From Halobacteria archaeon (GTDB lineage: Archaea; Halobacteriota; Syntropharchaeia; JACQPP01), in NCBI GenBank assembly GCA_038869515.1, contig JAWCQZ010000003.1, positions 126,884 to 190,883 on the forward strand: 64,000 nt of DNA. The letters are read 5' to 3'. The notes under the pieces are model-generated. The model saw nothing but the letters and a program-made list of their open reading frames with translations, was not told the DNA's origin and did not search any database. This document shows, piece after piece, positions 8,942 to 8,967 of this stretch. How positions within the stretch are numbered: position 1 is the first letter of the stretch; each line of letters opens with the position of its first letter. The position numbers and the translations under genes are program-made.

Positions 8942-8967
8942 CATATCACATCTCTCACTCTTTTCTG
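8942..8967. repeat. 26-bp A/T-containing motif ATATCACATCTCTCACTCTTTTCTGG (copy 1 of 2)
   Basis: Identical to 54724-54749 except one base; about 70 bp upstream of the Nre-like gene in a 270-bp intergenic region. Confidence 0.5.

What the first reader, a model, noticed from the sequence alone, without database searches (positions are those of the whole stretch)
8942..8967. 26-bp A/T-containing motif present twice (8942-8967 and 54724-54749)
ATATCACATCTCTCACTCTT(T/C)TCTGG matches at 25 of 26 positions, with unrelated flanks. One copy is about 70 bp upstream of the Nre-like gene. The other overlaps the stop codon of the substrate-binding-protein gene and the short spacer before the permease gene of a tungstate/molybdate-type ABC operon. 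A 26-mer of this composition recurring by chance in 64 kb of high-G+C DNA is unlikely, so it could be a regulator binding site, a small-RNA target or seed, or a recombination site.
Basis: seen in the sequence. Interest (0 to 1): 0.5.

Follow-up and report, generated by a model that had tools for sequence, protein, structure and literature searches.

The report
Conserved small-RNA-like tail copied into operon
The repeated 26-mer is real: one copy is the strongly conserved end of a small unannotated non-coding element (probably a small RNA gene) found in several related uncultured archaea, and the other is a 29-base fragment of it in a recent insertion between two tungstate-transporter genes, where the transporter mRNA would be perfectly complementary to that RNA.

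Summary
The repeat exists, at 8943-8968 (one base off) and 54724-54749: 25/26 identical, 27/29 when extended, none expected by chance. Both copies lie in insertions specific to this species. Relatives have the small ORF abutting nreA and tupA overlapping tupB (ATGA).

Copy 1 is the 3' tail of a ~70-nt unit (G-tract, small hairpin, CU-rich tail ending TTTTC). In three related species this unit lies downstream of, and convergent with, cobA. Its tail there is 24/24, 23/24 and 23/24 identical, while four-fold codon sites are only 58-67% identical. That implies purifying selection independent of genomic position. In the window's own species the cobA-linked copy has a shortened tail.

Copy 2 is only the tail. 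It is antisense to the tupABC mRNA and supplies the tupA stop codon.

Best reading (about 0.4): copy 1 is a trans-acting small RNA gene, and copy 2 creates a 26-bp complementary site with one G·U pair (-37 kcal/mol; every other window site is at background). Expression is untested and no canonical promoter was found.

Rivals are functionless insertion debris, a sense-strand mRNA element and a protein-binding site. An att or recombination site is rejected. No Rfam family matches. Interest is moderate.

The parts
8943..8968 (+). Copy 1 of the 26-mer. The cross-species conserved tail is 8942-8965 (CATATCACATCTCTCACTCTTTTC).
   Evidence: It is 24/24 identical in L023 and 23/24 in L049 and L052.
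8895..8966 (+). Element B (type 1): G-tract GGGAGGGCGGGC, small hairpin (GAGGC/GUCUC inside GAUA/UAUC) and CU-rich tail ending in T4C. This is the putative small RNA core.
   Evidence: BLAST gives 81-83% identity over 53-59 nt to the cobA-linked elements in L023, L049 and L052. See also alignments and folds.
8812..8892 (-). Element A: a remnant of a paralogous (type 2) element lying head-to-head with B. Its G-tract, seen as a C-tract on the + strand, pairs with B's G-tract to form the strong hairpin at 8866-8920.
   Evidence: 83% identity over 60 nt to L049 8381-8439. nhmmer results; fold.
8757..9011 (.). Lineage-specific insertion of about 250 bp between the stop of the 73-aa membrane ORF and the nreA promoter-like box AACTTTCACC.
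   Evidence: It is absent in L004, L005, L006 and L053, where the small ORF abuts or overlaps nreA.
8553..8774 (+). Conserved 73-aa membrane ORF upstream of nreA.
9041..10396 (+). nreA (Nre_N and Nre_C domains).
54724..54752 (+). Copy 2: a 29-nt fragment of the tail (27/29 to copy 1). It shares the TGGMAT extension only with copy 1. Its reverse complement is part of the tup mRNA and supplies the tupA stop codon and last four codons.
54668..54757 (.). Lineage-specific insertion of about 85-90 bp at the tupA/tupB junction.
   Evidence: Relatives L007 and L008 have an ATGA stop/start overlap and a TupA of 278 aa, against 282 aa here.
54736..55584 (-). tupA-like tungstate/molybdate-type substrate-binding protein gene.
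53978..54667 (-). ABC permease gene (tupB-like). The GTG at 54667 corresponds to the ancestral ATG.
53259..53981 (-). ABC ATPase gene (tupC-like).

Best explanation
Copy 1 is the functional 3' tail of a small non-coding RNA gene. The conserved core is about 70 nt, and the transcript might be about 120 nt if it starts near 8847. The core has a G-rich tract, a short hairpin, and a 24-nt single-stranded CU-rich tail that ends in a T4 tract usable as an archaeal terminator.

The ancestral location of this gene is downstream of, and convergent with, the cobA gene. In the species of this window an intact copy now lies in a ~250-bp insertion upstream of nreA, while the cobA-linked copy has a shortened tail and a hairpin insertion.

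A 29-nt piece of the tail was also copied, within an ~85-nt insertion, into the tupA/tupB junction. Its orientation places the exact complement in the tupABC mRNA. The RNA could therefore pair over 26 nt (one G·U pair) across the tupA stop codon, 57 nt upstream of tupB, and affect stability or translation of the tungstate transporter transcript.

Shown: the repeat, the two insertions, cross-species conservation above neutral, position independence, complementarity and predicted accessibility.

Inferred: transcription, the transcribed strand, and any regulatory effect.
For: 1. The repeat is not chance.
2. Both copies lie in insertions absent from four relatives for nreA and two for tupAB. Three further TupA homologues also lack the four-residue C-terminal extension.
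3. The 24-nt tail is 24/24 identical in GCA_964486625.1 (L023), 23/24 in GCA_964536735.1 (L049) and 23/24 in a JGI contig (L052), each time downstream of and convergent with cobA. About 35 nt upstream is also homologous.
4. Four-fold degenerate sites between these genomes are only 58-67% identical. Chance identity of 24/24 would be about 1e-5, which implies purifying selection.
5. The element keeps its tail intact at a new locus while the cobA-linked copy in a conspecific MAG has a shortened tail. This is expected for a self-contained, trans-acting product.
6. The conserved T4 tract is on the tail strand. The cobA-sense strand has no conserved T-tract.
7. The predicted hairpins need G·U pairs on the tail strand and show one compensatory change, A-U to G-C.
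8. There is no conserved ORF, and a 2-nt indel lies between hairpin and tail.
9. The tail-to-tup-mRNA duplex is -37.1 kcal/mol, while every other site in the 64 kb is at the level of shuffled controls. Cofolding gains -32 kcal/mol, and the tail is mostly unpaired in the predicted RNA.
10. There are precedents for archaeal intergenic sRNAs acting on polycistronic or ABC-transporter mRNAs: M. mazei sRNA41 and sRNA154 (review PMC5867862), H. volcanii sRNA132 on a phosphate ABC transporter operon (PMC6560208) and s479 on zinc transport (PMC8155600).
Against: There are no expression data.

No canonical TATA box of the kind seen upstream of other genes in the window (TTTAWATA type) lies about 26 nt upstream of the conserved core in the window, L023 or L052. 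In L052 the whole spacer is only 104 nt.

Secondary structure is not well conserved. In L023 and L049 the minimum-energy fold pairs the tail with the G-tract, and the z-scores are not significant. Covariation rests on a single pair in three sequences.

The tup site is specific to this species, and the tup junction of relatives pairs only weakly. The sRNA-target pair would therefore be young and could be an accident of insertion.

The w1-w2 identity continues 5-6 nt past the T4 tract, so the copying was DNA-based. In two of three independent contexts (cobA and tupA) the reverse complement lies in sense orientation just after a stop codon, which fits a cis element equally well.
Confidence: 0.4

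Rival explanations
1. The repeat is functionless insertion debris. This lineage carries several families of small duplicative or mobile non-coding elements. Both insertions are products of that activity, and the 26-29-nt identity only reflects a recent DNA copy event such as template switching, filler DNA or gene conversion. Copy 2 has no role, and the complementarity to copy 1 is a by-product.
For: Both copies lie in species-specific insertions. The copy 1 insertion is a composite of two different family members placed head-to-head. The cobA-linked element of the same species has itself been hit by a GC-rich hairpin insertion, which is homologous to an element inserted in frame in an acetyltransferase gene at 32230-32352. 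Other short intergenic repeats abound. The identity runs past the putative terminator. Only the tail, and not a whole element, is present at copy 2.
Against: This does not explain why the tail is 23-24/24 conserved across species whose neutral sites are about 40% diverged. It also does not explain why an intact copy persists at a new locus. The element lacks terminal inverted repeats: no inverted tail copy with up to 6 of 24 mismatches was found. No significant target-site duplication or whole-length palindrome was found. The family is low-copy, with no further members in 153 kb of clade DNA and only one 18-mer hit in the relative's whole genome. The explanation can hold for copy 2 while copy 1 is functional.
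Confidence: 0.28
2. The functional strand is the reverse complement. GAAAAGAGUGAGAGAUGUGAUAUGG would act as a cis-acting mRNA element placed at or just after a stop codon (cobA 3' UTR, tupA stop), for example as a processing, stability or translational-coupling signal. Copy 1 would then be a misoriented or inactive copy.
For: In L023, L049 and L052 the reverse-complement motif starts 15-19 nt after the cobA stop in sense orientation. At copy 2 it contains the tupA stop in sense orientation. It is purine-rich with a GUGAU Shine-Dalgarno-like core (read directly from the sequence).
Against: Copy 1, the best-conserved copy in this species, is not downstream of any minus-strand gene. On that strand the hairpin's G·U pairs become C·A mismatches. 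There is no conserved T-tract or downstream ORF at a fixed distance. The cobA-linked loci represent a single independent observation.
Confidence: 0.12
3. The 24-26-bp motif is a DNA site for a sequence-specific protein, such as a transcription factor or other DNA-binding protein. It would co-regulate nreA, the tup operon and the cobA/glyoxalase locus.
For: Sequence-level conservation without clear covariation. Copy 1 lies about 42 nt upstream of the nreA promoter-like box conserved in L004 and L053. In L052 the motif lies about 30 nt upstream of the probable TATA box of the glyoxalase gene.
Against: The motif has no dyad symmetry. Its orientation relative to the downstream gene is opposite in the window and L052. 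In L049 (and, by the same repeat at its contig end, in L023) the motif stays intact although a ~290-nt repeat separates it from the glyoxalase gene. Copy 2 lies inside an operon, over a stop codon. A non-palindromic invariant stretch of 24 bp is long for an archaeal operator (general knowledge).
Confidence: 0.1
4. The two direct repeats are attL/attR of a 45.8-kb integrated element, or an active recombination site.
For: The copies are direct repeats on the same strand, 45,781 bp apart.
Against: Genes on both sides of each copy are conserved neighbours in relatives that lack the motif: small ORF-nreA, and ApbA-tupA-tupB-tupC. No tRNA gene is nearby; the only tRNA is at 61734. The viral-contig scan gave only two unrelated hits from 34% and 47% G+C contigs, at chance level.
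Confidence: 0.02

Closest known systems
Trans-encoded archaeal sRNAs that mask sites in polycistronic mRNAs (Methanosarcina mazei sRNA41 and sRNA154; review PMC5867862)
   Same: It is an intergenic, non-coding unit of about 70-120 nt with a conserved pyrimidine-rich single-stranded segment. That segment is complementary to an internal region of an operon mRNA, and the unit is conserved among related species.
   Different: There is no expression or target evidence here. The complementarity is 26 nt and perfect rather than a short anti-RBS seed. It covers a stop codon 57 nt upstream of the next start codon, not a ribosome-binding site. The target site exists only in one species. There is no sequence similarity to those RNAs, and no Rfam hit.
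Haloferax volcanii sRNA132 (phosphate ABC transporter operon, PMC6560208) and s479 (zinc ABC transporter, PMC8155600)
   Same: These are archaeal intergenic sRNAs whose identified targets are ABC-transporter transcripts for an inorganic ion, and they act post-transcriptionally.
   Different: They belong to a different lineage and have different sequences. Those were validated by deletion mutants and transcriptomics, whereas this case is purely computational.
MITEs and palindromic insertion elements (for example Rickettsia palindromic elements, which insert in frame into genes; from my own knowledge)
   Same: These are short non-coding insertions in intergenic and coding DNA that are lineage-specific and partly palindromic. 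The same genome carries a GC-rich palindromic element inserted in frame into an acetyltransferase gene.
   Different: The tail-bearing unit has no terminal inverted repeats, no demonstrable target-site duplication and a low copy number. It is held at one orthologous locus in several species under purifying selection.
Plant miRNA genes born from inverted duplication of their targets (analogy only; from my own knowledge)
   Same: The regulator and its target share near-perfect extended complementarity because one was copied from the other.
   Different: The direction is reversed here: the target site appears to be copied from the RNA gene. The domain of life and the machinery are different.

Membership tests
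Trans-acting archaeal small RNA gene | Discrete transcript with its own promoter/TSS and terminator | not testable with these tools
   No transcriptome is available. A T4 tract is conserved at the 3' end in all intact copies. No canonical TATA lies at about -26 of the conserved core in the window, L023 or L052. An ATTAAAAGG box precedes the L049 paralogue.
Trans-acting archaeal small RNA gene | Sequence conserved above the neutral rate, and non-coding | tested here: met
   The tail is 24/24, 23/24 and 23/24 identical, against 58-67% identity at four-fold sites. There is no conserved ORF, and a 2-nt indel lies upstream of the tail.
Trans-acting archaeal small RNA gene | Conserved secondary structure supported by covariation | tested here: inconclusive
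   RNAalifold on 3 sequences predicts 13 pairs with one compensatory change, and two pairs of the long-range stem are broken in the window copy. Single-sequence z-scores are -2.6 (window), -0.4 and +0.6.
Trans-acting archaeal small RNA gene | Complementarity to an mRNA target beyond background | tested here: met
   The duplex with the tupA/tupB junction RNA is 26 nt and -37.1 kcal/mol. The next best site in the 64 kb is -21.6, within the range of shuffled queries (-22 to -30). Cofolding gains -32.3 kcal/mol. The site is found only in this species.
MITE / transposon end | Terminal inverted repeats | tested here: not met
   No inverted copy of the tail with up to 6 of 24 mismatches occurs in any clade locus. 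The self reverse-complement alignment of the whole insertion is not better than shuffles.
MITE / transposon end | Target-site duplication | tested here: inconclusive
   The apparent duplication of the small-ORF end is not significant. A possible duplication of about 15 nt of the tupA end flanks the copy 2 insertion, but it is weak.
MITE / transposon end | Many dispersed copies per genome | tested here: inconclusive
   No further members occur in 153 kb of clade DNA. The 18-mer hits the relative's representative genome only once. The window's own genome is not in the searchable collection.
att sites of an integrated element | Repeats bound foreign DNA, and flanks are contiguous in genomes without the element | tested here: not met
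   Each copy is flanked on both sides by genes that are neighbours in relatives.
Transcription-factor operator | Dyad or direct-repeat symmetry and a fixed position relative to promoters | tested here: not met
   Read directly from the sequence, the motif is not palindromic. Its orientation and distance to the nearest promoter differ among the window, L052 and L049.
C/D-box or H/ACA guide RNA | C (RUGAUGA) and D (CUGA) boxes, or an ACA box 3 nt from the 3' end after a pocket hairpin | tested here: not met
   Read directly from the sequence, no such boxes occur on either strand. The ACA after the hairpin is not conserved: it is ACU in L049 and CCA in L052. The weak sR21 hit has E = 1.2, far below the gathering score.
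Any Rfam 15 family | Covariance-model match at the gathering score | tested here: not met
   Only a tRNA-Ser was found in the window. Permissive scans of the three regions give only chance-level hits.

The most novel reading that the evidence does not exclude
The most novel reading is that a regulatory interaction arose by self-copying. A conserved archaeal small RNA gene relocated within the genome, and a 29-nt copy of its seed/tail was inserted in antisense orientation into the tupA/tupB junction. This would instantly create a perfectly complementary target in a tungstate-uptake operon, while also rewriting the tupA C-terminus and uncoupling tupA and tupB translation. It would be a documented route by which archaeal sRNA regulons gain targets through insertion rather than point mutation.
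Probability: 0.15. Interest if true: 0.65.

Novelty: new member of a known kind. Interest (0 to 1): 0.4.

Why it matters
If the element is transcribed, it defines a new family of small RNAs. It is absent from Rfam and occurs in a poorly sampled, high-G+C lineage of uncultured methanogen-type archaea that NCBI labels 'Halobacteria archaeon'. The case would also show an RNA regulator and its target related by recent DNA copying. Few archaeal sRNA-target pairs are known, and their origin is essentially unstudied.

Even on the mundane reading, the locus shows that small insertions in this lineage remodel gene ends and operon junctions. Here one added four codons to tupA and broke an ATGA overlap. 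Elsewhere one added 37 in-frame residues to an acetyltransferase. Both matter for annotation.

Tried and rejected
1. Chance was rejected.
2. The att or prophage-boundary idea was rejected by synteny.
3. The scans of genome, metagenome and viral collections with the 18-mer ATCACATCTCTCACTCTT found 15, 22 and 2 stretches. Only one belonged to this clade (L023). The rest are chance hits or unrelated families in low-G+C bacteria. The window's own MAG is not in the genome collection, so a true genome-wide count was impossible.
4. Rfam gave nothing at gathering or permissive thresholds.
5. The bacterial-type promoter/terminator scan gave nothing and does not apply to archaea.
6. The 'TTAGATTRA' box shared by the two insertions looked like a common promoter, but about five such matches are expected by chance, so it was dropped.
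7. I first read the AT-rich box at 8815-8827 as a TATA box. It is at least partly the reverse complement of the tail of element A.
8. I first read the L048 motif as split by a 41-nt insertion. Re-reading shows a ~48-nt GC hairpin insertion upstream plus a shortened tail.
9. The idea that the motif is a relic of the tupB start (GTGAGAGATGTGATA vs ATGAGCGATGTAATC, 11/15) is suggestive but not statistically secure.
10. The whole-insertion palindrome and long target-site duplication were not significant.
11. A conserved micro-ORF was rejected because of stops and a frameshifting indel.
12. The origin-recognition-box and dif-site ideas were rejected on sequence form.

Full report
**Observation.** The 26-mer ATATCACATCTCTCACTCTT(T/C)TCTGG occurs exactly twice in the window, at 8943-8968 and 54724-54749, both on the + strand. 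None of 100 dinucleotide-preserving shuffles produced a match. Local alignment extends the identity to 27/29 (8943-8971 vs 54724-54752), and nothing beyond that aligns. The motif is 38% G+C in a 69% G+C window. Copy 1 lies in a 266-nt spacer between a 73-aa membrane ORF (8553-8774) and nreA (9041-10396). Copy 2 overlaps the TGA stop of the minus-strand substrate-binding-protein gene (tupA-like, 55584-54736) and the start of the 68-nt spacer before the permease gene (start 54667).

**Source organism.** The window matches contig JAWCRK010000003 of MAG GCA_038869275.1, an uncultured archaeon that NCBI labels 'Halobacteria archaeon'. It carries methanogen-type genes such as MTD and FpoO. The lineage is sparsely sampled. 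The closest Nre homologues are 91%, 88%, 80% and 69% identical, and everything else is at or below about 63%.

**Both copies sit in lineage-specific insertions.**
- At the nreA locus, the small ORF's stop is followed directly by CTTTCACC and, 30 nt later, the nreA ATG in L004 (88% Nre identity) and L053 (91%, GCA_964486625.1).
- In L005 and L006 the two ORFs overlap.
- The three-way alignment places about 250 nt (roughly 8757-9011) as an insertion in the window.
- At the tup locus, L007 and L008 have tupA's TGA overlapping tupB's ATG (ATGA). All five close TupA homologues are 278 aa and lack the C-terminal YAREE found here.
- The alignment shows an insertion of about 85-90 nt (about 54668-54757). 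This insertion supplies tupA's last four codons and its stop.
- Because both flanks of each copy are conserved neighbours in relatives, the repeats cannot be the att sites of a 45.8-kb island.

**Copy 1 belongs to a conserved non-coding unit.**
One of them (L023) is in GCA_964486625.1, the relative already sampled by L007 and L053.
- There the sequence CATATCACATCTCTCACTCTTTTC is 24/24 identical to 8942-8965. A further ~35 nt upstream also aligns, covering a G-tract and the block ACWGGGGCYATCG.
- The element lies downstream of a cob(I)yrinic acid a,c-diamide adenosyltransferase gene (cobA). It is on the opposite strand, and its tail ends 19 nt from the cobA stop.
- Fetching cobA loci from other relatives showed the same element at the same place in GCA_964536735.1 (L049, tail 23/24) and in a JGI contig (L052, tail 23/24, inside a spacer of only 104 nt).
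- BLAST identities to the window unit are 81-83% over 53-59 nt.
- Four-fold degenerate sites in nreA, tupA and cobA between the window species and these genomes are 56-67% identical, and 82% for L052. Perfect identity over 24 nt is therefore far above neutral (about 1e-5). The 15-mer TCTCTCACTCTTTTC is invariant in all four full elements.

**The same species carries an altered ancestral copy.** Cluster membership shows that the same three NCBI MAGs carry both the identical Nre protein and the identical CobA protein. L048 (GCA_038869095.1) therefore shows the cobA locus of the window's own species. There the element carries a ~48-nt GC-rich hairpin insertion, and its tail is shortened to CAATCACTCTTTCC. 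In the genome of L023, L007 and L053 the pattern is reversed. That genome has an intact cobA-linked element, no insertion at nreA and no insertion at tupA/tupB. The simplest history is that the unit was duplicated to the nreA-upstream site in the window lineage, and the original then changed. Conservation that follows the element rather than the locus suggests a self-contained, probably trans-acting product.

**A small family, and a composite at copy 1.** A relaxed search found a paralogue in L049 (8345-8440). It has two G-tracts, a linker hairpin and a tail TTTTCTCAATCTTTTC, and it is preceded by an ATTAAAAGG box. The window region 8833-8892, read on the minus strand, is 83% identical to it over 60 nt. 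The copy 1 insertion therefore holds two family members head-to-head. The strong hairpin at 8866-8920 is simply their complementary G-tracts. A profile search of 153 kb of clade DNA found no further members, so the family is low-copy.

**Copy 2 is a fragment derived from copy 1.** Only the tail is present at the tup junction; the G-tract and hairpin are missing. Copy 2 shares the TGGMAT extension after TTTTC or TTCTC with copy 1 but not with the orthologues in other species. This suggests it derives from copy 1 or a close paralogue within this lineage.

**Which strand, and is it RNA?**
- *For a tail-strand RNA.* The only conserved T-tract is on that strand. The predicted small hairpin uses G·U pairs that would be C·A mismatches on the other strand, and it shows one A-U to G-C compensatory change. 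There is no conserved ORF.
- *Against.* No canonical TATA box lies at the expected distance. The structure differs between species, and in L023 and L049 the tail can pair with the G-tract. Fold z-scores are mostly insignificant. Covariation is minimal.
- No Rfam family matches.

**Complementarity to the tup mRNA.** If the + strand at copy 1 is transcribed, its tail pairs with the tup mRNA over 26 nt. The T/C difference becomes a G·U pair. The duplex energy is -37.1 kcal/mol, while all other sites in the window are at the level reached by shuffled queries. Cofolding a 120-nt model RNA with the junction gains -32 kcal/mol. The tail is largely unpaired (probability 0.72) and the site is moderately accessible (0.58).

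**Explanation and rivals.**
- *Best explanation, about 0.4.* Copy 1 is a small RNA gene, and copy 2 is a recently created complementary site in tupABC.
- *Insertion debris, about 0.28.* Copy 2 may be functionless. The lineage has many small insertions, including one inside the cobA-linked element and one in frame in an acetyltransferase gene.
- *Sense-strand cis element at ORF ends, about 0.12.*
- *Protein-binding DNA site, about 0.10.*
- *att or recombination site, about 0.02.*

**Comparison with known systems.** The closest functional analogues are archaeal intergenic sRNAs that act on polycistronic or ABC-transporter mRNAs. These are M. mazei sRNA41 and sRNA154 (PMC5867862), H. volcanii sRNA132 (PMC6560208) and s479 (PMC8155600). 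Membership of that class cannot be established without transcript data. The defining features of a MITE (inverted terminal repeats, high copy number) were tested and not met, or were inconclusive.

**Verdict.** This is a real, non-random feature. It points to an unannotated, selectively maintained non-coding element family and to a recent copy of its conserved tail inside an operon. I rate it as a new member of a known kind, of moderate interest, with the mechanism inferred rather than shown.

Noticed in passing
window 32230-32352 (minus-strand gene 31912-32526): A GC-rich palindromic repeat is inserted in frame in a GNAT/Ard1-type N-acetyltransferase gene. The insert is 41 codons where the PDB homologue 4pv6 has 4. 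It has a stem GGCCCGCGACCC/GGGTCGCGGGCC. The repeat is 78% identical over 76 nt to the hairpin inserted in the cobA-linked element of the conspecific MAG (L048 about 10650-10725), and part of it resembles L049 2780-2840. It is reminiscent of Rickettsia palindromic elements.
   Followed up: partly
window 45756-45860 (-); L049 2650-2760 (-); L023 6340-6395: A GC-rich intergenic repeat (...GGCTCGCCCAGCGCCGCTCCTCGCGCCTCCCT.GGTCGGCGCTCGTCGCA.ATTGG.GCTGACGGGCGCCGTCGCGCTGCGGCCCTTGC...) is shared between species at unrelated loci. In L049 and L023 it sits directly upstream of the tail-bearing element, and it ends the L023 contig.
   Followed up: partly
window 21738-21757 and about 21836-21850 (-); L007 2910-2934 and 1948-1963; L023 6376-6395: The short motif ACGAGAGGGTTTCCG(N)GTGG recurs in intergenic DNA of this species and a relative. 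Its function is unknown.
   Followed up: no
window 6086-6142 and 34375-34431: A 57-nt direct repeat, 81% identical (AAA.C.C.GCCCTCGCTCGCTGCGCTC.CTCGGGCGCG.TTT...GTTGCCATG), ends at an apparent start codon. It could be a shared 5' leader or a repeat element.
   Followed up: no
window 21078-21110 and 47911-47943: A 33-nt inverted repeat pair, 97% complementary, 26.8 kb apart (GTCACAAGAATTTTCGCTGCGCGAAAATTCTTA). Each arm is itself a hairpin. The arms are AT-rich in a 69% G+C genome.
   Followed up: no
window 10367-10800 and 10871-11449: There is a low-G+C stretch directly after nreA. It encodes a 132-aa membrane/zinc-ribbon-like ORF and is followed by HicA/HicB and, further on, ParE-type toxin-antitoxin genes. 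This is likely acquired DNA next to the copy 1 locus.
   Followed up: no
L049 8560-9340: An AT-rich island of about 800 bp lies in an otherwise high-G+C relative, immediately upstream of the type-2 paralogous element. It looks like a foreign insertion.
   Followed up: no
L048 10580-10625: Another GC-rich palindrome (GGGGCGGGGCCCGGG...CCCGCCGGGGCCCCGCC) lies between the shortened tail and the cobA stop in the window's species. It is absent from L023, L049 and L052.
   Followed up: no
window 54668-54684 (read on the minus strand): The sequence CTCCGGACCACTCCGGGTGAGC just before tupB resembles the ancestral tupA 3' end (TTCCGGTCCATCCGCGGATGAGC in L008, 16/23). The insertion may therefore be flanked by a duplicated ~15-nt target. 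Significance was not established.
   Followed up: partly
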